Positions 30,593 through 62,623 of a DNA stretch of 64,000 nt are shown here, in pieces. Position 1 is the stretch's first letter, and each line of letters opens with the position of its first letter. The stretch is from a virus (lineage: Duplodnaviria; Caudoviricetes): IMG/VR virus record IMGVR_UViG_3300044641_005618; one strand, written 5' to 3'. The notes beneath the pieces were generated by a model. It had not been told where the DNA came from, made no database searches, and saw only the letters and a program-made list of their open reading frames with translations. Both the position numbers and the translations under genes were made by a program.

Positions 30593-30773
30593 GGTGGGCA
30601 GTTAGTTAGGTAACAACGACAGTATATTGGCATTAACCCACTGGGTCTCTTCTCTCGACAACTTAAGCCACAGAAGGTCAAGCTCGTCGAGCAAGGCCTC
30701 CTCCGCGTCCTCGTTTCCCTCTCCCCTTAACTTTAGGGACAAGCTAAGTTTTTCGCAGTAATCTTTAACTTCG

Positions 30774-31364: not shown

Positions 31365-31370
31365 AAAACA

Positions 31371-31432
31371 ATCATAGCATTTATGCGAAGCAGAAACAAG
31401 GGGGAAGCCGAAGGCTTCAGGGCGGTTTACCG
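31371..31432 (-). promoter_or_regulatory. Repeated promoter element, leaderless
   Basis: CGGTAAACC-N13-CGGCTTCCC..TTGTTT-N17-TATGAT-N6-ATG. Confidence 0.8.
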
Positions 31433-32914: not shown

Positions 32915-33375
32915 TGCCTATTTCCAGGAAGAATCAAGTTAGACGCGGGCTCATCTTCGATGCGAATTGCTTCCTTGGCGGTCAGGTCATTGGTTCCTTC
33001 GATGCGAGTGAACGTTAGTCCGTACCCTTCACTCTCGGCTTGAGATGCAACGGAGTAGAGCCCGAGCGATCGTACAATAAGGTTACTCTCCGACAACTCC
33101 TCTTGTTCAGCAAGTGCTCGAAAAGCCTCAGCGAAGTTTACAGGGAGTTCCACTGTAATGGCGGTTGTTGCTTCACGGGGGTCACTAATCCCTGAGGCAA
33201 CTTGCCGCTCCTCGGCAATGTCTCTTGGGGAGTAGGTTATTCCCGCAGAGTTTGTTCGAGTGCGACCGAACATTTGTTCGTCTGTAAGGGGGGTTGTTGA
33301 TTCACGGGGGTCATTAATCCCCGAGGCAACTTGCCGCTCCGCGTAGCCACCGTTAAGCTGTTTGTTTGTGTCCAT
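32911..33375 (-). CDS. Chimeric protein: internal repeats, DUF6915-derived peptide, C-terminal ribbon-helix-helix
   Basis: RQVASGI(N/S)DPRE twice; EQMFGRTRTNSAGITYSPRDIAE; AITVELP...LSESNLIVRSL. Confidence 0.65.
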   Translation of the reverse strand: MDTNKQLNGGYAERQVASGINDPRESTTPLTDEQMFGRTRTNSAGITYSPRDIAEERQVASGISDPREATTAITVELPVNFAEAFRALAEQEELSESNLIVRSLGLYSVASQAESEGYGLTFTRIEGTNDLTAKEAIRIEDEPASNLILPGNRQ

Positions 33376-33430
33376 AGTTAGTAATCCTGTGTTTTCGTTC
33401 GTTAAATGCCACTTTGGTAGTCTTTAGGAC

Positions 33431-34918
33431 TCAATTCTCGGTGCCCCGATAGTTAGTATTTGAGCAACGTTCTAAGCCGTGTTCGGCTTTATACGTCATC
33501 CATTCCGGTGATTTCCACATTCCGCTCCAAACACCATTCCAGGTCTTGTGACCATTTCCGTATTCCTTGTGGTTGTCTGCCGCGTATCGCATGAAATCTC
33601 GGCGGCAGTCCTCGCACTCCATATCGTCAAGAGCGGTCATGCGCTCTCGTGAATAGAAAACGAACGAAACTCGTTCAGCGTCCGGCGTCTTCGGAATCAT
33701 TGCAGTGTTACCGTGAATCAGTCCCTGATTGTCACCGGCAATAAAGTCCCCATCACGAAGGTCGAAAGCGCAACGAATTTCAGGGAACACAAGGTAATGG
33801 CCGTCATATTCCCCTTGAGTAATTGCAGTAAGAACGGCAATACCACCTTCGCAGTTATTTCCATCATAGTGCATCGCACAGCGGAAGTTCCAGTTTAACG
33901 TAAGGGCAGTGAACACCGTACCGAAGAGGTTATAGTGCGGGTCTTTCACGTTACTGAACCGTTCGTGAAGGAGGTCCCACCGAGGGTTTTCCGGAGTGTT
34001 CAAGGTCTCTTTGAGCGCAGAGCACGCGGTCTGATAAATATCCGTGTGGCTTACGAACCCCTCATAGTCTTTTACAGTTGTTGCGGTCAAACGACCGTAA
34101 GGGTTACGTGCACCCCTATCAAAAGCACCAATCACGTTGGAATAGCACTTGTTTGAACGGTATTGTTTTCCCACATACCTGTCGTCGGCACGTTTCGCCT
34201 CAGAAACCTTATCCGTAGATGCACTCCAAGTCTCAGACAGCCAAGTCGGGAACCACTTCGCAAGTTCTCTACCCTTCGCTTCCTTCAGCTCTACCTTTCT
34301 TTCTTCGCTCAGCGTTTTCTTGCGAAGTTCCTTCTCGATAGATTCTAAAGCTTTCTCAATTTCTGGGAAGTCCTTTTTAACATCATTCACTCGGACAGTG
34401 AGCTTTGACATGTCGGGGGAGAGAGAAGCAATTTTCAGTGCCTCTTCCACGTCAGTGACTTGACCGGCCATCGCCTTCTTGAAGAAGTTTAGAATACCGT
34501 TGGTTACCCTTATCTCGAGTTGGGTAGTTAGTTCTCTACCAGCAACTAGGCCTCGTTGGTCTGAGTACAAGTCTCTTGCTGCCCAGCGGAAGTATTTCCA
34601 AGTTTCCGGGCTACCTTTCGAACCATCGCGCAGCTTCGGAAAAAGTGCCTTACGAAAGGCAACAACTTTCACTCCGCCCACATAAACGTCGCAGTCTTCT
34701 TGAATAAGGTTGTCGTAAGAGGTTTCGTCGGCGAAATAGCCAATGTAGTCTTTCGGGTCACACTCGTATAGCTTGTCGAGGTCGATTCGGCGGGGCTCTT
34801 GGCGAGAGCGTAAATCACAGACAACGGCTTCACTTACAGAACAGTTATCGTTGCATTTTTCATTTCCGGTTGAAGCGGCTTTAGAACTCTTCGTTAAGTT
34901 TTCTGTCACAAATGTCAT
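33431..34918 (-). CDS. TET/JBP-family dioxygenase, paralogue 2
   Basis: FTALTLNWNFRCAMHYD, LIHGN, RVSFVFYSRERM; colinear with paralogue 1. Confidence 0.85.
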   Translation of the reverse strand: MTFVTENLTKSSKAASTGNEKCNDNCSVSEAVVCDLRSRQEPRRIDLDKLYECDPKDYIGYFADETSYDNLIQEDCDVYVGGVKVVAFRKALFPKLRDGSKGSPETWKYFRWAARDLYSDQRGLVAGRELTTQLEIRVTNGILNFFKKAMAGQVTDVEEALKIASLSPDMSKLTVRVNDVKKDFPEIEKALESIEKELRKKTLSEERKVELKEAKGRELAKWFPTWLSETWSASTDKVSEAKRADDRYVGKQYRSNKCYSNVIGAFDRGARNPYGRLTATTVKDYEGFVSHTDIYQTACSALKETLNTPENPRWDLLHERFSNVKDPHYNLFGTVFTALTLNWNFRCAMHYDGNNCEGGIAVLTAITQGEYDGHYLVFPEIRCAFDLRDGDFIAGDNQGLIHGNTAMIPKTPDAERVSFVFYSRERMTALDDMECEDCRRDFMRYAADNHKEYGNGHKTWNGVWSGMWKSPEWMTYKAEHGLERCSNTNYRGTEN

Positions 34919-37613: not shown

Positions 37614-38417
37614 TTAACAAAGTTTTTCGTCAGTCTTGCAAGATCGTGGCTGACTCCATGAGGTCTCCCGCTCAAGCCGAACTTTGTAGGTTTCTTTAGA
37701 AGTGTCGTACCAAAACTCGGGATCTTTTACTCGGCACGGTGGCACATTCGTGAAGTTCTCCTCACGTGGTAAAAGCTTGGACACTTGTCGTATGCATTCC
37801 TGAGTAATCTCGTCAACCGTTTGACACCCGTCGATTGTAACCACGGGGTAACATTTCAGTCCCAGTTGTTCGTTGGGCTTATGAAATCCTGTAAGTATGC
37901 GGTCGAAAAAAGGTCGTTCTGACCGCTCAAATCTGTCTCGGACAGACAGCCCTTCGCCTTCTCGCCTTGAGAGCCGTCTCATTGACTCATCGACGGGAAC
38001 GTCAAAAAACAGTTCTAAGTCGGGGTACAATACTCCGCAGGCAAGTTCGTGGGCTTTCTCTACCGCTTCAGGTCCCAAACCTCTTCCCCACCCTTGATAG
38101 GCTAGGGTACTCGCGTAAAATCGGTCGCATAACACCCAGTTGCCCTTTTCTAGCTCCGGCATTATTACTGTTGCAACGTGCTGAGCCCGGTCGGCCATGA
38201 GCAGTAAAAGTTCGGCTTTCGGTGTGATCGCAGCCTTAGGGTTCTTAAGCAAGTCTCGCACACCGGGTAAACATCCTGGTTCTCGAGTTTTAACAACCTT
38301 GGTCCCTTCGGGTAGTCTCCCACTACGTGATAGCCAGTCAAACACAGCGTGGAGCTGGGTTGTTTTTCCGCAGCCGTCAAGACCTTCAAAGGTTATTAAC
38401 TGTCCTGTGTAACTCAT
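37614..38417 (-). CDS. tmk: Thymidylate kinase
   Basis: ITFEGLDGCGKTTQ, TREPG, ADRAQH, LCDRFYASTLAYQG, PDL. Confidence 0.92.
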   Translation of the reverse strand: MSYTGQLITFEGLDGCGKTTQLHAVFDWLSRSGRLPEGTKVVKTREPGCLPGVRDLLKNPKAAITPKAELLLLMADRAQHVATVIMPELEKGNWVLCDRFYASTLAYQGWGRGLGPEAVEKAHELACGVLYPDLELFFDVPVDESMRRLSRREGEGLSVRDRFERSERPFFDRILTGFHKPNEQLGLKCYPVVTIDGCQTVDEITQECIRQVSKLLPREENFTNVPPCRVKDPEFWYDTSKETYKVRLERETSWSQPRSCKTDEKLC

Positions 38418-38585
38418 AGCGAAATAGTTCGAATATAGTTTTGGTAACGGGTGAAGCGACCAACAGACGCTTTCACGTTTAAGCTCCGACAAGCTTCACA
38501 GTAGGAGAGAAACTCGTACCACGGGGTCGTGGGGTCTAAAGTCTCGAGCTTGGCCTCTGCCCCTGTGACAGAAGCGTCAGGGGCT

Positions 38586-42412: not shown

Positions 42413-43207
42413 TTACCGTGAGAACTGGTGAAAAGTATTTTGAGTGACGTTGTAAGCGGTTAGGCGACCCTTCGTCTTAATAAACGCACCCGTATCTATA
42501 TTTACGCGTTGTCCCTTCACAACGGGACGGTGGTCCTGAGGTGGTTCCTCGAAGTTGGTTGGTGTGTGACCATGAACGACTTTCTTCAGCCGTGGGTTCC
42601 ACCCTTCGAACTCCGGCCCGTATTTTAGAAAAGGTTGTCGAATCCACAGGAGTGCCTCGCCTCTTCCATCGACAATGAGCTTTGCAGGGTCGTGACCAGG
42701 GTACACCCCTGCGTGAATGAAAAGGGTATCTCCAATTGTCATATACAAGGGTAGATTTCGAATCCACTCCTTATGTTCCCTCTCCATGTCACCCACTTGG
42801 TCATAGTTTCCGCCGTTTTGAATCCACAGGCCGTAACTACTTGGGTCGTCAAGGGCGTCAAGAAACATCCTCTCGTGGTTCCCCATCAGGGAATAAAAGG
42901 CTTGAAGCCCCCAACTTTCCGGATCGTCGAGGAGATTTTTCGTATGCTCCAAAACTTTCAGGTCGCCCCTACCACGATCAATCATGTCACCTAAAAGTAT
43001 GACGGTGGCTTGAGACCCTTTCACCCAATTCAGAAATTGTTCGAAAAGAGTCCAGGTCGCGTGAATGTCCCCCAGAGCAACTACGTCCCCCGGCTGTATT
43101 TTGTTGTCGTAAGTTATCATCTCGTCAGTATATAAAGTCAATACGGTGGAAGGGTTCGTTGGTGATATTCTTGAGGGAAGCTTGTAAGGAGGCGTGCATG
43201 CGCTCAA
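42413..43207 (-). CDS. Ser/Thr phosphatase-like metallophosphoesterase (true start probably MITYDN)
   Basis: GDIH, GDMIDRG, GNHE, FIHAG, VVHGHT, IDTG. Confidence 0.9.
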   Translation of the reverse strand: MSACTPPYKLPSRISPTNPSTVLTLYTDEMITYDNKIQPGDVVALGDIHATWTLFEQFLNWVKGSQATVILLGDMIDRGRGDLKVLEHTKNLLDDPESWGLQAFYSLMGNHERMFLDALDDPSSYGLWIQNGGNYDQVGDMEREHKEWIRNLPLYMTIGDTLFIHAGVYPGHDPAKLIVDGRGEALLWIRQPFLKYGPEFEGWNPRLKKVVHGHTPTNFEEPPQDHRPVVKGQRVNIDTGAFIKTKGRLTAYNVTQNTFHQFSR

Positions 43208-45969: not shown

Positions 45970-46311
45970 CTAGGAAGGGGAACATTCGTCCAGGCACAGA
46001 CCAACGTCAAGGTTAAGCTCGTCAAGAGCACTTTGAACTTCCGACCTTCCTGTGTTATCGTAAACCACACTTCCTTCACCCCCCGAGAAACCCTCAACAA
46101 ATTCGTCAAGGTCGTCAAGGTCTGTGTACTTTTCAATTAGGTCTGTGTACCCTGCGTTAAGCACGGCCTGAAAGAAGCCGTCGTCGTCAAGTTCATCAAT
46201 TGCCGCTTTTACGGAGAGGGAGTATACGCGGAGAACTTCGCTTATTGGTGCATTGTTAATAACTCGTGAAATCACTTCATTCACGAATTCCGGTTTGTCT
46301 TTAATTGTCAT
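45970..46311 (-). CDS. Acidic hypothetical protein ending EVQSALDELNLDVG
   Basis: ORF track. Confidence 0.6.
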   Translation of the reverse strand: MTIKDKPEFVNEVISRVINNAPISEVLRVYSLSVKAAIDELDDDGFFQAVLNAGYTDLIEKYTDLDDLDEFVEGFSGGEGSVVYDNTGRSEVQSALDELNLDVGLCLDECSPS

Positions 46312-46378
46312 TTTGAATGTGTATAACGGTTTCTTTAGCGCCGTTGAACCTCTGTAAGTTCAAAGAGGAAACCGTAAA

Positions 46379-46463
46379 CGGAAGAGGGGGGATTTGAACC
46401 CCCGGAGGTTTAACCCTCTACAGTGTTCGAAGCTGCTGCTTTCGGCCGCTCAGCCACTCTTCC
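46379..46463 (-). tRNA. trnS: tRNA-Ser(CGA)
   Basis: GGAAGAG/CTCTTCC acceptor, loop TTCGAAC, long variable arm, GGTTCAAATCC T-arm, G73. Confidence 0.9.
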
Positions 46464-46553
46464 TTGGTACCGCGATGGGCCACTCCTGTGTCATTCACCG
46501 GATATGGCCTGTGGGTGTGTTCTTTAACGAGTTTTCTAGGACTTGAAACTAAG

Positions 46554-46642
46554 TAGGCGTGTAGGGAGTCGAACCCTAACTAGCCGGTAATCTGCCGGAG
46601 AGGACTTTATAATGGTCCCTGTGCACCGTACACCACGCGCCC
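46554..46642 (-). tRNA. Atypical tRNA, Ile(TAT) or Tyr(ATA), with long variable arm
   Basis: GGGCGCG/CACGCCT acceptor, GGGAC-CATTATAAA-GTCCT anticodon arm with 9-nt loop, TAGGG-TTCGACT-CCCTA T-arm. Confidence 0.7.
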
Positions 46643-46683
46643 ATGAAAGGGAACCACCATACGAGATGGCCCCAAGGTGAGGC

Positions 46684-46848
46684 TCAGGCAGAGGGAGTTT
46701 GAACTCCGACCGCCAAGTCAAATTCGTCAAGGGCACTTTGAACTTCAGTGCCGGTGCTTGCCTCGCTGAGTCTTAGGAGGAGCTTTGCGCCGTCGGGGTT
46801 TTCGACGCCAATTCGTGCGGCACGATCAACTATAGAAAGATTTGCCAT
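46684..46848 (-). CDS. Small protein inside the tRNA cluster ending EVQSALDEFDLAVG
   Basis: 54 aa from ATG at 46848. Confidence 0.6.
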   Translation of the reverse strand: MANLSIVDRAARIGVENPDGAKLLLRLSEASTGTEVQSALDEFDLAVGVQTPSA

Positions 46849-46895
46849 TTTGTATTGTTGCTGTTGTTGTTTAGTGTGGCTGCAAAGGCAGCCGA

Positions 46896-46967
46896 CGCCC
46901 TGAGAGGGATTCGAACCCACGACCGGTGTCTTAGAAGGACAGTGCTCTTCCACTGAGCTACCAGGGC
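46896..46967 (-). tRNA. trnR: tRNA-Arg(TCT)
   Basis: GCCCTGG/TCAGGGC acceptor, loop CTTCTAA, GGTTCGAATCC. Confidence 0.92.
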
Positions 46968-47028
46968 TTTCACGTTTAGAATAGCGTTTCACAAGGGGAG
47001 TAAACCTTATCTGCAAGGCACCCTTGAC

Positions 47029-47385
47029 TTAAGCCCCCTCTCCCGCGTCATTGGACTCCCCTCTCACCCACTCAACCCAGTAGTCTCGCGGGCACCGCAT
47101 GTTTGCCATGGTTGTCTTAGCGGGAAGAAAGCATCCGCACTCGTCACAGGTTGAACTTTTTTCTTCAAAGGATCCGCACACATTGCTCTCACAAATTGAG
47201 AGTCGGTCCTTTGCCACTTGGCGAGGGGCAAACGACGGATCTTCCAGCATTCGTTTAGCTGTGTCAATCAATGATGCGCCGAAACTTCTGCGGCAACATT
47301 CTGGCTCTTTATTCGTTTGTTCCAACGTTGCTCTGCGAAAGGTCTGTACAGTGTAATTTACCCGGATCAGTCCGTAAAGGTGCAC
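47029..47385 (-). CDS. Cys-rich zinc-binding protein (DUF6171-like)
   Basis: RLSICE..C...CDECGCFLPAK...CP..W. Confidence 0.6.
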   Translation of the reverse strand: MHLYGLIRVNYTVQTFRRATLEQTNKEPECCRRSFGASLIDTAKRMLEDPSFAPRQVAKDRLSICESNVCGSFEEKSSTCDECGCFLPAKTTMANMRCPRDYWVEWVRGESNDAGEGA

Positions 47386-49313
47386 AAGACCGAGAGATGC
47401 TTGTACAAAATACTCTCATCGAAAAACCGGTACTCCGACGAAAACTCTTCTCTCTGCTGAAAGTGTTCGAGCTCTTTTAAGGTGGCCCTAACAACCGGGC
47501 AGTCTGAAACGTAATCCTTGTACCAGAAAGTGTTGAACTTTGGAATGTACTTCCACCTATCTCCGTGCGGAATCCAAACTTTTTCAAAGTTCGTTTCGTG
47601 TAGCGAGCACGGGTCGTTCCACGTATCGGGGTCTACAACACTTATCTGCTGCACGATATCTTTCGTATCGTCAAGGAACGCCTGAAAGTAAAAGTCGTCA
47701 GGTGAGATTTTCCAGGTTAGGTTGACAATAAGATAGGGGATGTCGGGAAAGTCCCCTGACTGCACCGAAACCTTCTCGGCCACCCTTAAGCTAGTGATTG
47801 CCGTTTTCATCTTCCTCCGAAATGTTTGAAACTTCCGGGGTTCCCCTCAAAAGAAGCGTCTCAAAGAATTCGACCACGTCTATGCGATTAGTCGTATCAA
47901 CTCCCGCCGTGCGACAGAACTCGATCGCTTCGTACTCAAAGGGGAAGAACGGGTTGGACAAGCCGAAAGATTTAAGTCTCTGCAGGAAACAGTCTCGGAT
48001 TGCGCCATAAAGGGGTGGGAAATCGGACTCGTTAAGTTCGACGGTGCGTTCAACTTTCGACGGTGCGTTATACGTGATTTTCATACTACTCAGTGGGGTG
48101 TACTGAATGGGAATTACGTTCAATAACTTGTTCCAGGAAAACAAGTGCTTGTTCGTCAGTGTCGAAGAAGTGGCCTGCTGCATTCGATCCGAGAAGCACC
48201 TCTCCCGCTTCTTTAGGTGTGAGAGTAAAAGCACCAACCCCTCCCATAACCTGCGCGAAGCCCGCCAGACAGTGAGTGGTCCCGCACGTGTGAAAACCTG
48301 CTTCGTTCGATGGTTCCTTCCAGAAGGACCAATCTTCGTAAGTTGTTCTGTCAGTGTCAAACCAGAGCTTGTGCCACCTCTCCATGTGGAGGTTTTTCCG
48401 GTCGCGCTCAACAATCCATAGTGCGACATAGAGGAGATTGGCTTCCTGTTGTTCGGGTGTCAACCCTCCCAAGTCTTCTACGTTTCTGTACGTGCACTCC
48501 TCAAAGGCGTCAAGGGCGAGTAGGAAATTCGCCGGGATATGCGGGAGCGGAGGGAGCCCTTGTGATGTGCACATCCGGTGAGCAACCCGAGTGGCTTCAG
48601 CTGGCGTCAGTGCTTCGGTGCAAGTTGCTGTGGTCATTGTTTCGTTCGAAAATACAGTAGTTTGTTTGGAAAAGGTGAACGGTGCGGGGTTTTCCTCGCC
48701 CAGCAAACCTAGGGGAAAGGCTTACGCGTTACAAAGTAAGTTGAGACCCCTTGGTCGTTGCAAATGTGGAGACTTAGGGTCCTCTCGGTTATGTACGGGT
48801 CTGCACGAACTGAGTTACTCACCAGCTTGCACTTTTCGGCTAAAACCTTCGCTTCTTCCCTCTCAATCTCAGCGTTGTGCTCTTCCGCTCTTCGGTAGCT
48901 CAAGTTAATTACCGCCACCACTAGAACTGCTAGCCCTAGCACAGTGACAATAGTCACTAAGCCAAGGATACCGCCAACATACGGGTTCTCAGTTTTCATA
49001 CTTCGTGAAATACCACTTCTGTTAACTCTAAGGACTGAAAATGATCGCGCAGCGCCGTTAGCGCTTCTTGCTTTGTATTAAAGAAAACGTCCGGGCCTGG
49101 GCAACCGTCTACGCCTTCATTAAAGAAGGTAAGGAACCACCACCATAAGAACTTGTGTTCGCAGTAGAACCGGCTAATCCTTTCACCGTTTTCGGTACGG
49201 ATTTCTTCTCGAATGCGGTACTTCATTGGGGTTGAGGGTCGGGGGGGATTGAGGGCTAGCCAACTAACTTTAGCGTGTTCACGGCAAGGGAGAGGGGGCG
49301 GAAAACCGCCCAT
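47367..49313 (-). other. Run of small hypothetical CDS including a CGTTHCLAG protein (48086-48706) and a TM protein (48709-48999)
   Basis: ORF track. Confidence 0.55.
49267..49311 (-). promoter_or_regulatory. Variant promoter element with palindromic box
   Basis: GGCGGTTTTCCGCC upstream of CGC-TAAAGT. Confidence 0.5.
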
Positions 49314-49364
49314 TCCCCTTGGTAAGATCTTGGGAGCGGGACCCTTGGGCCCGGTGCCCTAGGG

Positions 49365-50192
49365 CTAGACAGTAGCCATTTCAAGGGCTACTTCCATGGC
49401 CCGCTGGTTGATGGTTGCGCCTTGACCGAAGTTTGCGTAACCGAAGCGTCCGGTCTCGCTCTTTCGACTACGATTGGAACTAAAGTCCGTAACCGCATTC
49501 ATGGCATCGTAAAAGGTGCGACCTTCGTTACCAGCGCCGTTGTAAAACAAGTCGTTGAGAACGTTGACATTGCGCATTTTGTCCGCTTCTTTCTTGTAAG
49601 TCGCCTCAAGGAAGGCACGGAATTGGGCGGAAGTGCAAGTTGCCGAGGCGATGACTTCAACTCTTTTAGAATACATCTTCATGGCGCTATTCACAAAGTC
49701 GAGCACTGCGGTGCTCTCAAGAATGCGCTCGTTCACTCCGGAAGAGTGGCGGAATTTTTCTCCGATGTTAGAATAAGCCATCGAAAAGGTGTTTCCACAA
49801 ATTACGCGAGTGGCAACCGGGCCGATGGCTACGGATGCGTTCCCTGTGTGCCCATTCAGAAGTGTGATGTATGCGTTGTAATCTTCACCAATTACACGAA
49901 ACTCCTGGTTGATTTTCGCCTGGACGAACACCTTGGCCCCGTGAGCCAAGTATCCCATGTTTTCCACTGTCAGCAACCCCTCTTCAACCATGGGGTTGAC
50001 CATCTGTAGAATCTGTGCATTTTGCACCACCTCGTACCCGGTGGAAACATATCCGAGGCGTTCGTCGGTGTCGTCCCGGTGAATCGCTTTGCGGTCTGGA
50101 TCCGCAACCCAGACTCCCTGGGAGTTAAGCGATGCCGTGGGCCTTGGGGAAACAGACCAATTAAGGTTGTTGGTGATGGCGAAAGCGGGCAT
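49365..50192 (-). CDS. DUF932/DUF945 family phage-plasmid protein
   Basis: LGYVSTGYEVVQN, GAKVFVQAK, YITLLNGHTG, TRVICGNT, RHSS, NAVT. Confidence 0.85.
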   Translation of the reverse strand: MPAFAITNNLNWSVSPRPTASLNSQGVWVADPDRKAIHRDDTDERLGYVSTGYEVVQNAQILQMVNPMVEEGLLTVENMGYLAHGAKVFVQAKINQEFRVIGEDYNAYITLLNGHTGNASVAIGPVATRVICGNTFSMAYSNIGEKFRHSSGVNERILESTAVLDFVNSAMKMYSKRVEVIASATCTSAQFRAFLEATYKKEADKMRNVNVLNDLFYNGAGNEGRTFYDAMNAVTDFSSNRSRKSETGRFGYANFGQGATINQRAMEVALEMATV

Positions 50193-50222
50193 GGTTTGTG
50201 AGGGGTTGCTTGGACTGAAATA

Positions 50223-50266
50223 ACTATACCGCTTTCCTGTCGGAAAGGAAAGGGGGTAAACCGCCC
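50223..50266 (-). promoter_or_regulatory. Repeated promoter element
   Basis: GGCGGTTTACC..TTTCCT-N17-TATAGT; spacer CTTTCC-GACA-GGAAAG. Confidence 0.75.
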
Positions 50267-50501
50267 TTCCTCTGGAGCTAAGACCCGAACCTCAATCTCT
50301 TTCCCACAATTGGGAGCACCGTTGACTACACTTTAGCGGCCTGAGCGGGTAGCTCATTTTGGCCCTGAACGCATTTCTTTGTACTTCTTCTGCGTTCCTG
50401 CCTGTCACAACCATTTGAGTCTTGCACAATGCATCGTTGCCAGATAAAGCGGTGCAAAGCGCCAAGATCGCAATTGAAACTCTGTTCATTGTTCGTGTGA
50501 A

Positions 50502-50532
50502 AATGGAACCGGCGGGACTCAAACCTGAAACC
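50502..50532 (-). repeat. Degenerate copy of the tRNA-Lys 3' end (att-like)
   Basis: 27/31 identical to 51111-51141. Confidence 0.75.
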
Positions 50533-50555
50533 GAACCTTAGACACCCGAAGTACC

Positions 50556-51098
50556 TTAACTTGCGGGCTTTTCCGGCGAAGAGCCAAGTTCCTGGGATGC
50601 GGCTAGATAGTCTTCGATGGCTGCATGAAAGTTGGATTCAAATTCAGCTATCGTTTCGCCGTGAAACGAGATAATGTCGTCGATGTCTAGGACACGACCA
50701 ACAATAATCTTGTCTTCAGTATCGAAGACCATACTGGCTGTGTAGTCTTTGTAGGCCATGGAATTGATCATGGCTTTCCGCACCCAAGTAGAAGAATACG
50801 GTTCAATAAGCATGTACAAACCTTCCTCAAACTTCCCCGTAGAGAGAATGATTTGGAGGGCTGTTTGAGTTTGTTCGTGAAGTTGCCTGTACTCCTCTTC
50901 CTGTGACTCGGTCAATTCTTCTAGGTCTTCTCCAGTCAGAATTTCGTGTATGTCTCCGATAACCCAACTGTTGCCATACGGTCTTTTCGGGTCTATTTCC
51001 GGAGCACCGAATTCACAGTTGCTCCACCCAACGTGCATTCTTCTCAGCAGTTTCAGGTGGTTTTGAGTTAGGAGAAATGAGGTCTTGCTGTTAGTCAT
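50556..51098 (-). CDS. Phage hypothetical domain fused in frame to a HicB-like antitoxin N-terminal domain (from 50759)
   Basis: MAYKDYTASMVFD..DKIIVGRVLDIDDIISFHGETIAE....FHAAIEDYL. Confidence 0.75.
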   Translation of the reverse strand: MTNSKTSFLLTQNHLKLLRRMHVGWSNCEFGAPEIDPKRPYGNSWVIGDIHEILTGEDLEELTESQEEEYRQLHEQTQTALQIILSTGKFEEGLYMLIEPYSSTWVRKAMINSMAYKDYTASMVFDTEDKIIVGRVLDIDDIISFHGETIAEFESNFHAAIEDYLAASQELGSSPEKPAS

Positions 51099-51112
51099 AG
51101 TAAAAATGGGAA

Positions 51113-51224
51113 TGGGACCGGCAGGACTCGAACCTGCAACCGCGCCTTTAAAAGAGGTAATTTAATTGCTGATGTATCTTTGTCAAGATAACTTTTCGTG
51201 CTCTACCAGTTGAGCTACGGTCCC
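51113..51224 (-). tRNA. trnK: tRNA-Lys(TTT) interrupted by a 39-nt insert in the anticodon stem
   Basis: Removing 51158-51196 gives a fully paired 73-nt cloverleaf with CGCCT-CTTTTAA-AGGCG. Confidence 0.85.
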
Positions 51225-51696
51225 GTATTTGCTCCGAAAACTACCTGGAGCAATATTGAAAGTTTTTCTTAGCCCTTGAGCTACTCTCCAATTTTAGTGG
51301 GTTCAAAGGTTAAATTAAACCACTCCCCGTCAGAGTTACAGAACAAGAGCTTAGAGTCGCTATCGTCAGGGTAATGCCAGATCAGCATGTTCTTTAACGA
51401 TTTGTTTTGGGAGTTTTTGGGTAGGGTCTTACCTCGCTTCAGTCGATACAATACGTCATGCCCTATCCCTTTACTCGGCACGTCTAACCGTATGCCCTTG
51501 TCACCGTCAAAACCTGCTTCAGTAGGTGTCATGTCTTTTTGTTGGGTCTACGTTCGCTTGGCAAATTACTTGGATCGAGAACAAAGGTCTTTTACTACCA
51601 TTATGGAGATAAAGTTTGGGTTTAACTAGATAGTTGTTTTTCCCAAGAGAGTTAGGGTAAATCGCTGAACTATCTACGTTTCCCATAGAGAAACAA

Positions 51697-51818
51697 TCGA
51701 AGAGGCAAGATTCGAACTTGCGTATGGCGGTTCCTTTTGCGTATTGGGTAGTTGCTGAATTACCTAAGCTAGGTAATCTTTTTGCATTACCGCTGCCTAA
51801 CCACTTGGCTACTCTTCG
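51697..51818 (-). tRNA. tRNA-like gene with a 57-nt anticodon-loop region (best guess Cys, GCA)
   Basis: CGAAGAG/CTCTTCG acceptor, GCC/GGC D-stem, GCGGT/ACCGC stem, GCAAG-TTCGAAT-CTTGC T-arm. Confidence 0.75.
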
Positions 51819-51944
51819 GTTTTCGCACCGCTTTGCTGGGTGGAGGTTAAGGGGGCGAGGAGTGGAACCTTGAGCTCCACATCCGTATCATAGGTTGGAA
51901 GTGCTAGGGGTAAACGGAATCAAGCAGAGACCCTTACTCGGGGC

Positions 51945-52349
51945 CTATCGCGGGGCACCACCCATGTACTCTCGAAAGGCGTTCATAAAGTACCTTACGT
52001 CCTTCTCGTAAGATGTGTCAGGGTCGTACCACGAGAAGGGGACTTTTTGTGATATCTTCTTGGAGAAAATAAGGTCATACTTGGCTTCATCGGAGAGCTT
52101 AGACTCGTAGATTGAGTTGGCCTCCCTGTACACTCTGCTTAGCTCATCAAAGCCACCTGCTCCACTTGCTTCTTCGTTCAACTCCAGGGCACCTTCGTAC
52201 CACTCTTCGAGGGACTCCACAATTTCTCCAAGCCTTGTGGCGTAGGTGTGTTGGTCGTCCCTTAGCAAACTTTGACGGAAAGTGCGTAACTGACACAAGG
52301 TGTTATGAAGTTTTGTAAAGTCTTCGGAGAAGAGTGTGATGTTTGCCAT
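51945..52349 (-). CDS. Hypothetical protein, leaderless start
   Basis: ATG 6 nt after TATAGT. Confidence 0.65.
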   Translation of the reverse strand: MANITLFSEDFTKLHNTLCQLRTFRQSLLRDDQHTYATRLGEIVESLEEWYEGALELNEEASGAGGFDELSRVYREANSIYESKLSDEAKYDLIFSKKISQKVPFSWYDPDTSYEKDVRYFMNAFREYMGGAPR

Positions 52350-52355
52350 ACAGTA

Positions 52356-52418
52356 ACTATAGCGGTTTTACTGAGCGAAGGCAAGGGGGGAAACCGCCCC
52401 CAGGACGAGTGTTAACCG
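52356..52418 (-). promoter_or_regulatory. Repeated promoter element, leaderless
   Basis: CGGTTAACA-N13-CGGTTTCCC..TTGCCT-N17-TATAGT-N6-ATG. Confidence 0.8.
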
Positions 52419-52856
52419 CCCTGGCTCAAGTTAATTTCCTTGCGACTTCCTCCGTAAGACTCAATAACTTTCCCCGCATTAGACACACTCACATCTAAGT
52501 GTCTGTACTCCGTGGGGGTGTTCTGGAGTATGTGCTGAAATTGCCCCTTAAACTCCTCCCAGGAAATAGTGTCCGACACTCCCTGCCCCCTTTCAATCTG
52601 TACGACACTGTCGTACAACTCTCTCAGGGAAGAAAACTCTATAACCTGAGAGTACATCTCCCACTCGCTATGCGATTCACTTGACTGACCTTGCATATAA
52701 AATTAACAGGATGAGGAACAAAGTATACGCACAGCCTAAGATCATGAACGGGCTAAGCACCGAGACCCATGGCCAGGATATTTGCCCCGTTAATTTCAAT
52801 CCGATGAGAAGACCCTGGGCTGTCATTAACGAAGCTGAGAGATTCGTAAACATTAG

Positions 52857-53042
52857 TTATTTCTCATGTGTAAGTACCTGAAGAATCATCCAAAGGGCTC
52901 CCAACCCAAGTAGAAAAATTGGCACAAGAGTCGGTGAAAGCACTGTGAGCCAGGGCCAGGAAACCTGACCCGCTACCTTCAAAGTTATGAAAACGGTTTG
53001 CAGAACGATGCAGAGGGCACCCGGCAATTTGATCCAGATCAT
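52857..53042 (-). CDS. Small two-TM protein (LKxxGxxxWPW motif)
   Basis: Hydrophobic; related to the frameshifted gene at 62630-62850. Confidence 0.6.
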   Translation of the reverse strand: MIWIKLPGALCIVLQTVFITLKVAGQVSWPWLTVLSPTLVPIFLLGLGALWMILQVLTHEK

Positions 53043-54517
53043 GCTCCTTCAGCAAATACGGCACCGACAGCGTCGTACCTTTCAGTGTAAACAGCGTCAC
53101 GCATAACCCCTACAGGCGTAATTACCCCACCAGTAAGAACAGCTTTCAGGATTGAAGGGCTGCATCCGGAGACCAGGCAAGTTCCCGTGTCATGCATTTT
53201 CATGGGCACGTTGCCGCTAGAGTTAACATTCCAGAAGACAAGTTCCGGCAAGGAGTACCCTGCTTGAGCATACTTGATTCGCACCGCCTCAAAGTTTGTC
53301 ACTGAGTTGTTTCTGCAGCAGGAATCAAACTGCATGTCTGAGACAATGATAAGCTTCCGGGGCATTTCCCCTTCAGGAATATGGTTCCTCGTTGCGGTAG
53401 CCAACACAAGATTGAAGACTGCTTGAAGGTCCGTATTCATGTCCCACTTGGCTCGACTAAGGTTATTAACACGCTCAGCAATGTTTCTCCCGGTGACAGA
53501 CTGCAGCTTCGGGCTTCCTGAGAAGGTTAGGAACTTATCCTTCCATGCCCCGGTGTTACGCTCAGCGATGTACATCGCCAGCGAGATTGAAACCGCCATG
53601 GGCATGCCGCCGTTCTGGCCCATAGACCCCGAGACATCAGCAACTACAAGGCCGTTTAGCTGCTCTCCCTCCATGTAGTTGGGTAGAGCCTCCCACATTA
53701 AGTTTAGAGTCTGATCGCTCTTTTCACCCCCGTAAAGGTACTTGTGCACGATTTCGTAAGGGTAGATCGTACCGGCATTGATTTTTGCCTCACCTTTCTC
53801 TACCGAGTCAAGGTAGGATTGGTAACGGTTGCCGTCGCGCTTGGCGAAAGCTTTACGATACATGAAGCCGGCCCGAGAAGGCAACTTGCTATAGTCAATG
53901 CTTTCCCACTCACGAGCACACATTGGCTGCTCAACAATTTTGACTTGAGTCCTGAGGGCAGTCAGTGCCTTGCGGTACTGCCTCTCGGTCCAACCCATTG
54001 CTTCGGCAATTTTTCGGCCAATCCTCTTAGAGTCCTGGCTGGAAGCGTTAATGGAAGGCAGCCACTTTGCCAGAAGTGACACTGACTTTCCAACTTCCGT
54101 ATTTAGGTCGGCGTTCAGTTGTGCCTTAATTGCTTCGAGTGCGATGCCCCAAACTGGGGTCCCGTCGAGGGCTACCACATCATCCCAGCGACCGTACTGT
54201 GGAATCAGGCTAACTAGCCTGGCACCAATTGCAGCATCATTTCGAACCAGCTCCTTGAAAACTTCTCGAAAGATCTTTCTCTCACCCTGGCCCCCACGAA
54301 TGTCGCGTGCCCAGAACAGGATTCGGGTTGCGGTCTCAGGGTCTTCTGCGTAGGCAAGGTTGAACAGTCGAGTTGCTTCGCTGATGTTGTCACGGCAAGC
54401 TGCAATCTTTCCAAAAAGGTCCAGGCACTTAGACTCGGTGGACTTGTATGCCTTTGCACCGTTAGCGGTGATGGTTTGGTTAAACTCGTTTTCGAGTGCG
54501 TTTAAAAAGGTTGTCAT
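53039..54517 (-). CDS. DUF2828 family protein (helical repeat plus vWA, TROVE/Ro60-like)
   Basis: WARDIRGGQGER, GRWDD, AKWLPS, YRKAL..LR, IDYSKLPS, MIDAS DVSGSM, SDMQFD, VFWNV. Confidence 0.85.
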   Translation of the reverse strand: MTTFLNALENEFNQTITANGAKAYKSTESKCLDLFGKIAACRDNISEATRLFNLAYAEDPETATRILFWARDIRGGQGERKIFREVFKELVRNDAAIGARLVSLIPQYGRWDDVVALDGTPVWGIALEAIKAQLNADLNTEVGKSVSLLAKWLPSINASSQDSKRIGRKIAEAMGWTERQYRKALTALRTQVKIVEQPMCAREWESIDYSKLPSRAGFMYRKAFAKRDGNRYQSYLDSVEKGEAKINAGTIYPYEIVHKYLYGGEKSDQTLNLMWEALPNYMEGEQLNGLVVADVSGSMGQNGGMPMAVSISLAMYIAERNTGAWKDKFLTFSGSPKLQSVTGRNIAERVNNLSRAKWDMNTDLQAVFNLVLATATRNHIPEGEMPRKLIIVSDMQFDSCCRNNSVTNFEAVRIKYAQAGYSLPELVFWNVNSSGNVPMKMHDTGTCLVSGCSPSILKAVLTGGVITPVGVMRDAVYTERYDAVGAVFAEGA

Positions 54518-54623
54518 TTTCTCAAGTTGATTGTTTGTTTGGATACAAATTAAAGCTGTATCAACTTTGCTCCCGTCCAAATGAACTAAGGGAACTTTAG
54601 TGGGTTTACAGTGGTAGCTTCAC

Positions 54624-56558: not shown

Positions 56559-57296
56559 CTAAGCAAACTGAACAAGGGTCTGTTCTTCCAGGTTCCACAC
56601 ACAGAGGCGAGCGTGCGCCGGGTCGAAACTTTTCTGAGTGCTGCCACCCATCTGACCGTCGAGAACCAGGCTCTTCTCGCTCGTGTGAACGTGGTGGTAG
56701 TGCCCCGCGACACGAACCCAGGTCCGATCGCATTCCTCTTCCCACCAAAAGACACGAGTCTCATCTTGAGGGTACACCGCACCGGGACGGCGAGGACCAA
56801 ACAGCATGTAGTCCTTGGCTTTTCTCGTCACCTCGTTCACACGGTACACTCCAGTGTAAGACGGCGGAACAAGAACCCACTTCGGAAACATCGCGTGAGC
56901 ACAACGGTACTCGGTCCCTCGGGAATCTCGCAAGGCAACCCCGTAGGGAAAAGTTTCCAGCCAGGCAGAGACTTCCTCAATAGGGATACCTGCGTCTGAG
57001 AAGTCTTGCACAGTACGCTCAAAGCCCTCTTTAAGAACCACGTTGTTCCCGCGAGCGTAACGCTCCAGCTTGTTTTGGTGGTTGCTTCGAAGCACAATCG
57101 CCCCTTCTTCCATGGCTTGCCGAACGGCTTTGTACACACCGACACTGTCGCTTGTTTCCATGCGAGAGTCAAAGAGGTCGCCGAGGAAAATTGGTGTGCA
57201 ATTTGCTCCTCGGCAATAATCGAGTGCTTTGAGCAGGGGCTTTCTCTGAGAGTGTAGGTCGCCGATGAAGGCAAAATTGGAAGTAACGTTATTCAT
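56559..57296 (-). CDS. Metallophosphoesterase, leaderless start
   Basis: GDLH, GDLFD, SNH, CAHA, AGHYH, LDG. Confidence 0.85.
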   Translation of the reverse strand: MNNVTSNFAFIGDLHSQRKPLLKALDYCRGANCTPIFLGDLFDSRMETSDSVGVYKAVRQAMEEGAIVLRSNHQNKLERYARGNNVVLKEGFERTVQDFSDAGIPIEEVSAWLETFPYGVALRDSRGTEYRCAHAMFPKWVLVPPSYTGVYRVNEVTRKAKDYMLFGPRRPGAVYPQDETRVFWWEEECDRTWVRVAGHYHHVHTSEKSLVLDGQMGGSTQKSFDPAHARLCVWNLEEQTLVQFA

Positions 57297-60700: not shown

Positions 60701-61834
60701 ATGAGAAATTGCTACACATACAGAGTGGGTTGGTCCCGGTTCAATAAGTACTACTACGGAGTTAGATTCGCCAAAGGATGTCACCCTGCTGACCTTTGGG
60801 TTGCCTATTTCACTAGCTCCCGGCATGTAAAAGCATTTAGAAAAGTTCACGGGGAGCCAGATATCATAGAAGTGAGAAAAACTTTTGGAGACGAACCTAA
60901 AAAGGCAGCCGAATGGGAACAAACTGTTTTACGAAGACTAAACATAGAGTTCAACGAACTATACTTAAACAGAAGCCGAAAGAACGCTTTCGGGGCCAAG
61001 GGGGCGCCATGGAATGTGGGTAGAACCAAGGAGAATTGCCCCGTGACACATTTAACTGCGGAGAAGATTAGCAAGACTAGAAAAGGTTTTAAAGCCTCAG
61101 AAGAAACTAAGAAGAAACTGTCTATGGCTGCAAAGGGAAGGGCCGAAGAAAATTCCTGGAAGCAGCTATTAAAAAGTCCAGCAATTAGAAACAGATTTCA
61201 CTCCTATAAACATTTCTTAGTTGAGATAGAAAACCTATACGAGTCTTGTTGGGGTATCGCGGAGGTCATTTCAAAAGCCCTGGGAGTGAACGTCAGAGGC
61301 GTTGCTAAAGCCCTAGAGCGCCTAAATCTGACTTCTTTGAACGACCAGCAGAGAACTAAAGTGTATAATAAGTACGGGAACAAGTTCTCTAGTTACAGCG
61401 ACTACTGCATAAGTATCTTAGTTTTACATCTCAAGGGCTACACTCCCAGTCAAATTGGTAGTCAGTTGGATGTAAATGAATGCGGAGTGGGGAACCTTCT
61501 TCTTAGGGTTGATTTAACCCCTAACAAGGCCAAAACGGGACCGTCAAAGCCCGCTTTTAAGAAGGTACTGATTGCTGATGCTCTTGAAGCTAAAAGCACC
61601 ACATTCACTCTTGAAGACAATCCCCTCCCGGAGAGTCTTATTGCTAAGTTGAGAGAAACCGTCTGCCATACCGAGGATCTCTTCCACACCCATATCCTTT
61701 ATAGAGAAGCTTCCCAACACAGGGACGTGGCCCAAACCAAATTGATCGCAAAAGTTTTTCCTTTCCAGGGGGGTCATGTACCTCCCCATATCCGTAAGGT
61801 AGACATCAAAAACAAAGAACTTGAAGTCATTTAG
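60701..61834 (+). mobile_element. Free-standing GIY-YIG (Seg-like) homing endonuclease with NUMOD3-like motifs
   Basis: YTYRV...YYYGVR, YFTSS, WEQTVL, YLN; PWNVG and KISKTRKG..SEETKKKLS; opposite strand to neighbours. Confidence 0.8.
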
Positions 61835-62623
61835 CTTGTAGATGTTTTGCTGTATTTTTGGGCCTACAACTTCTCCCTGTACAGCCACATTGTCAAACCC
61901 TGCAGTCTTCAGTTTTTCTTCTAGATTGACTTTTCTAGCGACGGACCAATAAGTGTTATTATAATCCTCTTTTAGGTCTAAGTTACGGGAGCAAACTCCG
62001 AACTCTCCGTTGTTAAGGTACATCGTACAGGATGTACCCTCTAGTTTCTCCGTAACTTCGTATATAACATTCTTGTATTCCCCCAGTTTGTCGTATAGAG
62101 ATTGAACTCTCGGCTGGTCCGTTTTGGTAATGAAACTCGGGAAGTTTCCACGCACTTGTCCGGCAAGGCATGCGGGGACCGTGGCCTCCCACTTTTGAAT
62201 ACCAAACTCTAGAGTGAAGTCTTCGCCTTCTTGCCACACACACTCATCAACTCGGAGAGATCCCCTCCCCCCATAAGGTTCAGCTAGCGAAACAACGTAG
62301 AAGCTTGGAGAGATGTCCGAGAAGCGAAGTAGGAGACCCTGGGAGACTTGACCACGGAGCCGGACGGTTTTCAACCTTTCCCCCTTCACTCCATTGTACT
62401 CCCTTGGTTCCTTCCCCTTGGACAAGAACGGGGCAAGTTCGTGGGGGATCCACGAGTCAATCTCGAAATAGATTGCAAGATCACCGGCCTGGAATTCCCC
62501 CCTCTTCACGACAACGGGCCAGCCACCTCCCACGATGGCGCACTCAATTGCGTCGGCGTCTGGAATTGGTCGGATCTCCGTTACTTTTCGGACGGAGGCG
62601 AGTTTGCGTTCGATGTTTGCCAT
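61544..62623 (-). CDS. RNA ligase, DRB0094 family
   Basis: RKLASVRKV..I.PIPDADAIE, YFEIDS, LRGQVSQGL, TEKLEGTS, GEVVGP, REGIVFK, FKSISNQYLLK. Confidence 0.92.
   Translation of the reverse strand: MANIERKLASVRKVTEIRPIPDADAIECAIVGGGWPVVVKRGEFQAGDLAIYFEIDSWIPHELAPFLSKGKEPREYNGVKGERLKTVRLRGQVSQGLLLRFSDISPSFYVVSLAEPYGGRGSLRVDECVWQEGEDFTLEFGIQKWEATVPACLAGQVRGNFPSFITKTDQPRVQSLYDKLGEYKNVIYEVTEKLEGTSCTMYLNNGEFGVCSRNLDLKEDYNNTYWSVARKVNLEEKLKTAGFDNVAVQGEVVGPKIQQNIYKLNDFKFFVFDVYLTDMGRYMTPLERKNFCDQFGLGHVPVLGSFSIKDMGVEEILGMADGFSQLSNKTLREGIVFKSECGAFSFKSISNQYLLKSGL

What the first reader, a model, noticed from the sequence alone, without database searches (positions are those of the whole stretch)
51113..51818. 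Two tRNA genes carry the same structured insert (AAAAG - 19-nt hairpin - TCAGCAA) in the anticodon arm
Seen: tRNA-Lys(UUU) has 39 nt inserted between positions 28 and 29 (51158-51196), and clean removal gives a perfect cloverleaf. The neighbouring tRNA-like gene has a 57-nt anticodon loop (51732-51788). Both inserts read AAAAG, exactly 19 nt, TCAGCAA, YTA. The 19-mers form hairpins with compensatory pairs (TATCTT-GACA-AAGATA versus ATTACCTA-GCT-TAGGTAAT). They are far too short for group I/II introns and do not form a bulge-helix-bulge. Inference: a new class of mini-intron or protein-binding module in phage tRNAs.
Basis: partly seen in the sequence, partly recalled or inferred. Interest (0 to 1): 0.85.

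Follow-up and report, generated by a model that had tools for sequence, protein, structure and literature searches.

The report
tRNA-shaped partner RNAs of phage Ro60-like protein
The two "tRNAs with inserts" are most likely not intron-bearing tRNAs but tRNA-shaped non-coding RNAs whose insert is a conserved handle (hairpin plus CAGCAA) for the Ro60-like RNA-binding protein encoded next to them, a pairing repeated in many unrelated phages.

Summary
Two minus-strand genes (51113-51224 and 51697-51818) score as tRNA and both carry AAAAG, a 19-nt hairpin and TCAGCAA in the anticodon arm.

- **Not decoding tRNAs.** Orthologues in related phages keep the insert and its hairpin through compensatory changes. 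They do not keep U33 or the anticodon. The second gene cannot give a canonical anticodon loop by any single excision.
- **Widespread family.** The same design (tRNA body, A-rich linker, hairpin, 1-5 nt, CAGCAA, G-poor linker, short stem-loop) occurs in dozens of unrelated phage contigs, often 2-5 copies in tandem.
- **Linked to one protein.** Among loci fetched by DNA pattern alone, 32 of 53 with the RNA also hold a DUF2828/DUF7788 gene on the same strand, mostly 80-1200 bp away. Only 9 of 292 loci without the RNA do (p = 4e-23).
- **That protein is Ro60-like.** In the window it lies at 53039-54580. Its model matches Ro60/TROVE structures over the full length and carries a vWA MIDAS motif.
- **Best reading.** These are unspliced Y-RNA-like tRNA mimics. 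Binding and function are inferred, not shown.
- **Status.** I found no Rfam family or paper describing it. This scan has already noted the same protein-plus-handle pairing on other phage DNA.

The parts
51113..51224 (-). tRNA-shaped RNA, 'Lys-type' (body derived from tRNA-Lys; 7-bp acceptor stem, D arm, T arm, A73; no encoded CCA)
   Evidence: Rfam tRNA 48.5 bits. MFE -35.4 kcal/mol, z = -3.3. Orthologues lie in 14 related DUF2828 loci.
51158..51196 (-). 39-nt insert between tRNA positions 28 and 29. Parts: AAAAG 51192-51196; hairpin UAUCUU-GACA-AAGAUA 51175-51190; spacer CA; UCAGCAA 51166-51172; A/U linker 51158-51165
   Evidence: The same module sits at the same place in orthologues. The closing pairs 27-28:42-43 covary from CG:CG to CU:AG.
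51145..51157 (-). Distal stem-loop CCU-CUUUUAA-AGG (former anticodon stem-loop)
   Evidence: The stem is invariant. The loop varies among orthologues: CUUUUAA, CGUUUAA, AUUUUAA, AGGUUAA, ACGUUAA.
51697..51818 (-). tRNA-shaped RNA, 'X-type'. The anticodon stem GCGGU/ACCGC is intact and the loop is replaced by a 57-nt domain
   Evidence: Rfam tRNA 44.7 bits. Ten-sequence alignment A2 shows compensatory changes.
51732..51788 (-). 57-nt domain. Parts: AAUGCA 51783-51788; AAAAG 51778-51782; hairpin AUUACCUA-GCU-UAGGUAAU 51759-51777; UCAGCAA 51752-51758; G-poor tail 51732-51751
   Evidence: In the hairpin, 5 of 9 pairs changed on both sides among orthologues. A possible 3-bp helix joins UGC to the GCA of CAGCAA. 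No single excision restores U33.
53039..54580 (-). Ro60-like protein gene (helical TROVE-like ring plus vWA domain with MIDAS motif DVSGSM), 1.2-1.8 kb upstream of the two RNAs on the same strand
   Evidence: Pfam DUF7788 4e-51 and DUF2828 6e-37. PHROG 850 'RNA-binding protein' 5e-153. AlphaFold model pLDDT 82. Top 12 PDB matches are all Ro60/TROVE proteins, full length, E from 1e-7 to 4e-4. Invariant D315, S317, S319 in alignment A1.

Best explanation
The two genes encode stable, unspliced, tRNA-shaped non-coding RNAs, functionally Y-RNA-like. Each keeps a full tRNA body: an open 7-bp acceptor stem, a D arm and a T arm. That body would let host enzymes end-process and probably modify the RNA like a tRNA.

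The anticodon arm has been rebuilt to display a conserved handle: an A-rich linker, a hairpin, 1-5 nt, and the single-stranded word CAGCAA followed by a G-poor linker. The handle is the docking site for the Ro60-like ring protein (DUF2828/DUF7788) encoded beside the RNAs.

The resulting particle would couple the ring protein to whatever recognises tRNA shape. By analogy with Ro60-Y RNA-PNPase particles, that could be an exonuclease, RNA-repair enzymes or tRNA-targeting host factors.

Shown here: the RNA architecture, hairpin covariation, drift of the anticodon loop, wide distribution, tight same-strand gene linkage, and the Ro60-like fold of the protein. Inferred: physical binding, absence of splicing, and the downstream function.
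For: 1. Linkage found from the RNA side. Of 345 loci fetched by DNA pattern only, 32 of 53 with the RNA hold a DUF2828 homologue (37-66% identity) in the roughly 9-kb piece. Only 9 of 292 without the RNA do (Fisher p = 4e-23). All but one of the linked loci have the RNAs on the gene's strand, and most lie 80-1200 bp from the gene.

2. Linkage found from the protein side. All 14 loci of the window's clade, fetched by protein (74-97% identity), carry insert-bearing tRNA-like genes downstream on the same strand, up to four per locus. Of all 61 DUF2828 loci, 49 have a strict RNA, and most of the rest have a helix followed by NNN-CAGCAA. No other protein neighbour is conserved.

3. The protein is Ro60-like by fold: full-length matches to phage phiLo Ro60, Xenopus and human Ro60, and Deinococcus Rsr, plus a MIDAS motif.

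4. The hairpin is kept by compensatory changes. In alignment A2, 5 of 9 pairs changed on both sides. The observed covariation exceeds all 500 shuffles and all slid controls.

5. Decoding features are not kept. Among 35 members with a 7-nt distal loop, 26 have U33. Loops differ among orthologues with the same body. The X-type has no recoverable anticodon loop.

6. Precedent. Ro60 genes of bacteria and phages lie next to tRNA-mimicking Y RNAs (PMC4201824). Phage phiLo Ro60 binds two adjacent Y-like RNAs and host PNPase (PMC12135203).

7. Contigs from four lake metatranscriptome runs cover both genes with the inserts present and show no joints. This is weak evidence.
Against: - No binding or expression experiment exists. 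The RNA-library contigs are low depth, could include DNA, and cannot show mature small RNAs.
- The window's Lys-type gives a textbook tRNA-Lys(UUU) cloverleaf once the insert is removed.
- Many family members keep U33, A37 and A38, as expected if some are still used as tRNAs after processing.
- The phage encodes an RNA ligase (61544-62623) and several phosphoesterases, so a cut-and-rejoin route is possible.
- The handle does not resemble the canonical Ro60-binding motif GNCGAAN0-1G, and the RNAs do not match Rfam YrlA.
- In at least one phage (G003) the RNAs lie about 8 kb from the DUF2828 gene.
Confidence: 0.72

Rival explanations
1. These are genuine protein-dependent tRNA introns. The hairpin-CAGCAA module is the recognition element for an unidentified endonuclease, the Ro60-like protein holds or chaperones the precursor, and the phage RNA ligase rejoins the halves to give working tRNAs.
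For: - Clean excision of 51158-51196 gives a perfect tRNA-Lys(UUU).
- The tRNA-Asp(GUC) example L129 and several others also restore canonical loops of the form AU-NNN-AA.
- An RNA ligase (PF09414) and metallophosphoesterases lie in the window.
- Enigmatic short introns have been reported in Lak megaphage tRNAs (PMC6784885).
Against: - The X-type cannot be restored by any single excision.
- U33 and the anticodon drift among orthologues.
- The distance from the conserved motif to the supposed splice sites varies: 0-4 nt on the 5' side and 8-10 nt on the 3' side.
- No joints appear in RNA contigs, and no intron-less allele was found.
- The 98%-complete sister genome has no EndA or RtcB.
- Some DUF2828 loci carry the handle with no tRNA body at all (L255).
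Confidence: 0.15
2. The RNAs are tRNA-shaped decoys or baits. Paralogues mimicking different tRNAs (Lys-, Asp-, Val-, Glu-like bodies with varied loops) attract host anticodon nucleases or other tRNA-targeting defences. The Ro60-like ring sequesters them or captures cut ends. This is a specific functional version of the best explanation.
For: - Several paralogues with different tRNA-like bodies and varied loops of the form AU-NNN-AA occur per phage.
- Jumbo phages combine tRNAs, RNA ligases and a TROVE protein as counter-defence (PMC7824862).
Against: This is purely inferential. Loop variation may simply reflect relaxed constraint. No nuclease partner has been identified.
Confidence: 0.08
3. 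The genes are decaying pseudo-tRNAs disrupted by a small mobile DNA element, with no function.
For: The same module sits in different tRNA bodies, as a mobile element would.
Against: - The acceptor, D and T arms stay intact and the hairpin covaries across lineages whose linked proteins are only 37-97% identical.
- Strand and position relative to one protein gene are constant.
- No terminal repeats or target duplications were seen.
Confidence: 0.03

Closest known systems
YrlA-type bacterial and phage Y RNAs bound by Ro60/Rsr (Chen et al. 2014, PMC4201824; Rfam RF02553)
   Same: A small RNA gene lies next to a Ro60-type ring protein gene. The RNA contains a tRNA mimic with D- and T-arm features, and often there are two or more RNAs per locus. 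M. smegmatis YrlA is even cut by RNase P and receives CCA.
   Different: In YrlA the RNA ends form the Ro-binding stem (motif GNCGAAN0-1G) and the acceptor-like stem is closed. Here the ends form a normal open acceptor stem, and the presumed binding module is a closed hairpin plus CAGCAA inside the anticodon arm. There is no RF02553 match. The protein belongs to DUF2828/DUF7788, not Pfam TROVE.
Thermus phage phiLo Ro60 with Yrl1/Yrl2 (PMC12135203; PDB 9KOP, 9L5Y)
   Same: A phage-encoded Ro60 ring plus vWA protein has adjacent small RNA genes. These structures are the best structural match to the window's protein (E = 1e-7, TM 0.55-0.60). The particle recruits host PNPase.
   Different: Sequence identity is only about 15%. 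The phiLo RNAs are stem-bulge-stem Y RNAs with a CGAA motif, not full tRNA shapes with a CAGCAA handle.
'Enigmatic' short introns of Lak megaphage tRNAs (Devoto et al. 2019, PMC6784885) and non-canonical archaeal tRNA introns
   Same: Oversized phage tRNA genes have inserts too short for group I or II introns. Archaeal introns can also sit in the anticodon stem.
   Different: No bulge-helix-bulge is predicted and no EndA is present. The inserts here share a conserved handle linked to a Ro60-like gene. The anticodon is not conserved.
Dictyostelid Class I RNAs (PMC7919456)
   Same: A short stem is followed by a conserved, unstructured 11-nt motif whose near-invariant positions (T3, C6, C9, A10, A11) fit ..U..CAGCAA. 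From my own memory the motif is CCUUACAGCAA. Pfam's description of DUF2828 as also eukaryotic is likewise my own knowledge.
   Different: Class I RNAs are eukaryotic, 42-65 nt long and have no tRNA body. No link to a DUF2828 protein is published. This is a resemblance only and was not tested here.

Membership tests
Decoding elongator tRNA (with or without intron) | Cloverleaf with acceptor, D and T arms | tested here: met
   Rfam tRNA model scores 48.5 and 44.7 bits. Family members elsewhere score 42-52 bits.
Decoding elongator tRNA (with or without intron) | 7-nt anticodon loop with U33 and purine 37; anticodon conserved among orthologues | tested here: not met
   Lys-type orthologue loops are CUUUUAA, CGUUUAA, AUUUUAA, AGGUUAA and ACGUUAA. 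The GGGGAAU-body type has five different 7-8-nt loops. U33 occurs in 26 of 35 seven-nt loops. The X-type never yields U33.
Group I / group II self-splicing intron | Catalytic core (P3-P9, or domains I-VI), more than about 200 nt | tested here: not met
   The inserts are 39 and 57 nt. No intron or ribozyme family appears in Rfam at E <= 10.
Archaeal/eukaryal protein-spliced tRNA intron | Bulge-helix-bulge at the splice sites, and an EndA-family endonuclease | tested here: not met
   Predicted and consensus folds show a hairpin with unpaired flanks and no bulge-helix-bulge. PF01974 is absent from the 98%-complete sister genome G001 while archaeal controls are positive. RtcB is also absent.
Small self-cleaving ribozymes (hammerhead, twister, pistol, hatchet, etc.) | Match to the family covariance model | tested here: not met
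   No hit at E <= 10 in 46000-53000 or in seven other loci at E <= 0.5.
YrlA / Y RNA | Gene adjacent to a Ro60-type protein gene | tested here: met
   Window: 1.2 and 1.8 kb downstream, same strand. Across phages: 32 of 53 versus 9 of 292.
YrlA / Y RNA | tRNA-like domain | tested here: met
YrlA / Y RNA | Ro-binding stem formed by the 5' and 3' ends, with motif GNCGAAN0-1G; match to RF02553 | tested here: not met
   The ends form an acceptor stem and the conserved word is CAGCAA, 3' of a hairpin. The only RF02553 hits are weak ones spanning two neighbouring tRNAs.
YrlA / Y RNA | Physical binding to the Ro60 protein | not testable with these tools
   Needs a pull-down or gel-shift assay.
Ro60 / TROVE protein | HEAT-repeat ring plus C-terminal vWA domain with MIDAS | tested here: met
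   The model matches Ro60 structures over 511-576 alignment columns, probability 1.00. The D-x-S-x-S motif is invariant.
Ro60 / TROVE protein | Sequence match to Pfam TROVE (PF05731) | tested here: not met
   Only DUF7788 and DUF2828 match at E <= 0.01. No PDB sequence hit at E <= 1.

The most novel reading that the evidence does not exclude
DUF2828 proteins and CAGCAA-handle RNAs form a second, very widespread branch of Ro/Y-RNA particles in phages. In this branch complete, end-processed and possibly chargeable tRNA bodies are tethered to a Ro-like ring. The particle would act as a tRNA-shaped bait or repair platform against host tRNA-cleaving defences. The same handle in dictyostelid Class I RNAs would hint at an ancient protein-RNA pair shared with eukaryotes.
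Probability: 0.2. Interest if true: 0.85.

Novelty: new variant of a known kind. Interest (0 to 1): 0.6.

Why it matters
Ro60-Y RNA particles are central to RNA quality control and to human autoimmunity, yet what their tRNA-like domains do remains unknown. This family offers many natural variants of a different build: a full tRNA body with an internal handle, paired with a divergent Ro-like protein. Relatives occur in phages that can be cultured, so the system can be tested.

There are two practical consequences:
- Oversized phage "tRNAs with introns" of this type are missed by default gene finders.
- With intron options on, ARAGORN gives them wrong anticodons (tRNA-Gly and tRNA-Leu here).

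Recognising the handle prevents false claims of new introns and false tRNA counts.

Tried and rejected
- **GenBank phages.** A blastn search with the 3-kb region found no match.
- **First two IMG/VR pattern scans.** They gave only three outside instances: L034, L129 and L187.
- **Hammerhead, pistol or K-turn readings of AAAAG/UCAGCAA.** I considered these by eye and dropped them. The core words do not fit, and Rfam finds nothing.
- **Hairpin as a copy of the anticodon arm.** The resemblance is striking in the Asp example L129 but does not hold in other members.
- **Pairing of AAAAG with the CUUUU of the Lys loop.** This is absent in other members.
- **Literature.** Searches for mini-introns or ribozyme introns in phage tRNAs found only the Lak 'enigmatic introns'. 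'DUF2828' returned no relevant paper.
- **Burroughs and Aravind 2016.** The paper is not held.
- **Promoter and terminator scan.** Uninformative.
- **Conserved protein neighbours of DUF2828.** Only shadow ORFs inside the gene itself emerged.
- **Metatranscriptome contigs.** They show the unspliced form but cannot rule out DNA carry-over or a rare spliced form.

Full report
**1. The observation**

The region holds two genes on the minus strand. The Rfam tRNA covariance model scores 48.5 bits for 51113-51224 and 44.7 bits for 51697-51818. In each case a block in the anticodon arm stays unaligned, 52 and 57 nt long. ARAGORN with default settings finds neither gene. With introns allowed it calls them tRNA-Gly and tRNA-Leu with arbitrary introns.

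In the first gene, removing 51158-51196 (39 nt between positions 28 and 29) leaves stem CGCCU/AGGCG and loop CUUUUAA. The flanking letters allow no other boundary. In the second gene an intact 5-bp stem GCGGU/ACCGC encloses 57 nt (51732-51788).

Both blocks contain AAAAG, 19 nt and TCAGCAA. The pattern occurs exactly twice in the window against 0.04 expected. Both 19-mers fold as hairpins.

**2. Relatives keep the insert but not the anticodon**

The nearest record held, G001, is a 277-kb jumbo-phage contig that is 98% complete and 93-96% identical here. It has both genes.

I used that protein to fetch 16 related loci. Every locus of the clade with 74-97% protein identity carries insert-bearing tRNA-like genes just downstream on the same strand, up to four per locus.

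- **Lys-type orthologues.** They keep the hairpin, the CAGCAA word and the distal stem CCU/AGG. The two closing pairs covary from CG:CG to CU:AG. Their loops read CUUUUAA, CGUUUAA, AUUUUAA, AGGUUAA and ACGUUAA.
- **A third type (GGGGAAU body).** It has five different loops of 7-8 nt.
- **X-type orthologues.** They keep the whole 57-nt domain. Five of the nine hairpin pairs changed on both sides. The covariation score exceeds all 500 shuffles and every slid control.
- **No recoverable anticodon loop in the X-type.** No single excision from the X-type domain gives a loop with U33.

A decoding tRNA would not lose U33 or change its anticodon among close orthologues. These RNAs are selected for shape and for the insert, not for decoding.

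**3. A large family in unrelated phages**

Filtering for a perfect hairpin, a T arm and a 7-bp acceptor stem left 82 distinct sequences, window clade included, from dozens of contigs.

They share one plan:
- a tRNA body;
- two closing pairs of the anticodon stem;
- an A-rich linker;
- a hairpin, often of the form ..UCA-UGUU-UGA.. or ..YCU-GNNA-AGR..;
- 1-5 nt, then CAGCAA;
- a G-poor linker;
- often a short stem-loop such as UCC-AUNNNAA-GGA;
- a variable region, T arm and acceptor stem.

The bodies resemble different tRNAs (Lys, Asp, Val, Glu and others). Many contigs hold 2-5 copies in tandem. In Rfam they match only the tRNA model. The weak YrlA hits span two neighbouring tRNAs and are artefacts.

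**4. Linkage to one protein**

I ran tblastn with the window's 513-residue protein against all fetched loci.
- Among the 345 loci obtained by DNA pattern alone, 32 of 53 with the RNA encode a homologue (37-66% identity, plus two near-identical copies). Only 9 of 292 without the RNA do (p = 4e-23).
- All but one of the linked loci have the RNAs on the gene's strand.
- In the roughly 40%-identity lineages the RNAs lie mostly 80-1200 bp upstream of the gene. In the window's clade they lie downstream.
- Most of the nine exceptions, and most of the 12 DUF2828 loci without a strict RNA, still show a helix followed by NNN-CAGCAA near the gene. In L255 this occurs without any tRNA body.
- No other protein neighbour is conserved.

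**5. The protein is Ro60-like**

Pfam assigns DUF2828 and DUF7788. PHROGs calls the family an RNA-binding protein. A 16-sequence alignment has an invariant D-x-S-x-S MIDAS motif. The AlphaFold model has a mean pLDDT of 82.

Its 12 best PDB matches are all Ro60/TROVE proteins aligned over their full length: Thermus phage phiLo Ro60, Xenopus and human Ro60, and Deinococcus Rsr. E-values run from 1e-7 to 4e-4. Isolated vWA domains come next. By sequence it matches neither Pfam TROVE nor any PDB chain. It is a divergent branch.

**6. Interpretation**

Ro60 genes of bacteria and phages are known to sit next to Y RNAs that mimic tRNA (PMC4201824). Phage phiLo Ro60 binds two adjacent Y-like RNAs and host PNPase (PMC12135203). 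Jumbo phages were noted to carry a TROVE protein said to work with a tRNA-like partner (PMC7824862).

The present RNAs fit this logic with a different build. The acceptor end is open as in a real tRNA. The presumed protein-binding module is a closed hairpin plus CAGCAA set into the anticodon arm. I therefore read the insert as a handle for the adjacent Ro60-like protein and the RNAs as unspliced tRNA mimics (confidence about 0.7).

What the particle does is inferred only. Tethering the ring to tRNA-recognising enzymes, or acting as bait or a repair platform against tRNA-cleaving defences, are the obvious options.

**7. The intron rival**

Points in its favour:
- The window's Lys-type gives a perfect cloverleaf after excision.
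- Many members keep U33, A37 and A38.
- The phage encodes an RNA ligase (61544-62623) and phosphoesterases.

Points against:
- The X-type cannot be restored.
- The anticodon loops drift among orthologues.
- The linker lengths between the motif and the supposed splice sites vary.
- G001 has no EndA and no RtcB.
- No intron-less allele exists in IMG/VR.
- Contigs from four lake metatranscriptome runs carry the inserts and show no joints. These contigs are low depth and could include DNA, so this point is weak.

I give splicing about 0.15.

**8. Novelty**

I found no Rfam family and no paper describing DUF2828-linked CAGCAA RNAs. Notes from this same scan already describe the pairing on other phage DNA, including an 'ACAGCAA tag' and a possible link to dictyostelid Class I RNAs. 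The published invariant positions of the Class I motif fit ..U..CAGCAA (PMC7919456). I treat that as a lead only.

The finding is a new variant of a known kind (Ro60 with a tRNA-mimic Y RNA). It is not a new intron class.

Noticed in passing
window 46553-46642 (-): A 90-nt 'tRNA-Ile(UAU)' scores poorly as a normal tRNA; its best Rfam hit is tRNA-Sec at 22 bits. It appears to carry two hairpins in tandem where the anticodon arm should be. A 90-95-nt counterpart is present in nearly all related loci and in L129 and L255. It matches an earlier scan note on phage tRNA-Ile with two anticodon arms.
   Followed up: partly
window 61544-62623 (-); also 56559-57296, 42413-43207, 9731-10366: An RNA ligase (PF09414 plus the PHA02142 OB-fold domain) lies 7 kb upstream of the Ro60-like gene. 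Several calcineurin-like phosphoesterases are also present. Together they suggest an RNA-repair tool kit.
   Followed up: partly
window 25985-34918 (-): A DNA hypermodification cluster: two Tet/JBP-type dioxygenases, an amino acid:DNA transferase, an amidoligase, a glutamine amidotransferase and an R2K ATP-grasp protein. A thymidylate kinase lies at 37614-38492.
   Followed up: no
window 50556-51098 (-): The ORF directly downstream of the Lys-type RNA has a C-terminal HicB-like antitoxin domain (PHROG 9151, 1e-21).
   Followed up: no
window 51677-51696 (-), just 3' of the X-type RNA: A small hairpin (GUUUCUC-UAUG-GGAAAC) directly follows the discriminator base. Relatives have a different hairpin sequence at the same place (e.g. 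UUUGCC-UUCG-GGCAAA). It could be a terminator or a processing signal.
   Followed up: no
L248:11500-12200: The intergenic space after the DUF2828 gene holds extra minimal elements lacking a tRNA 5' half: a short hairpin, CAGCAA, a linker and a T-arm-like hairpin. L255 and L256 have two helix+UAA-CAGCAA elements with no tRNA body 50-120 nt upstream of the gene.
   Followed up: partly
L255:6291-6636: A tRNA-Leu(UAA) gene with a 258-nt insert in the anticodon loop, probably a group I intron, lies in a phage that also has the DUF2828 gene.
   Followed up: no
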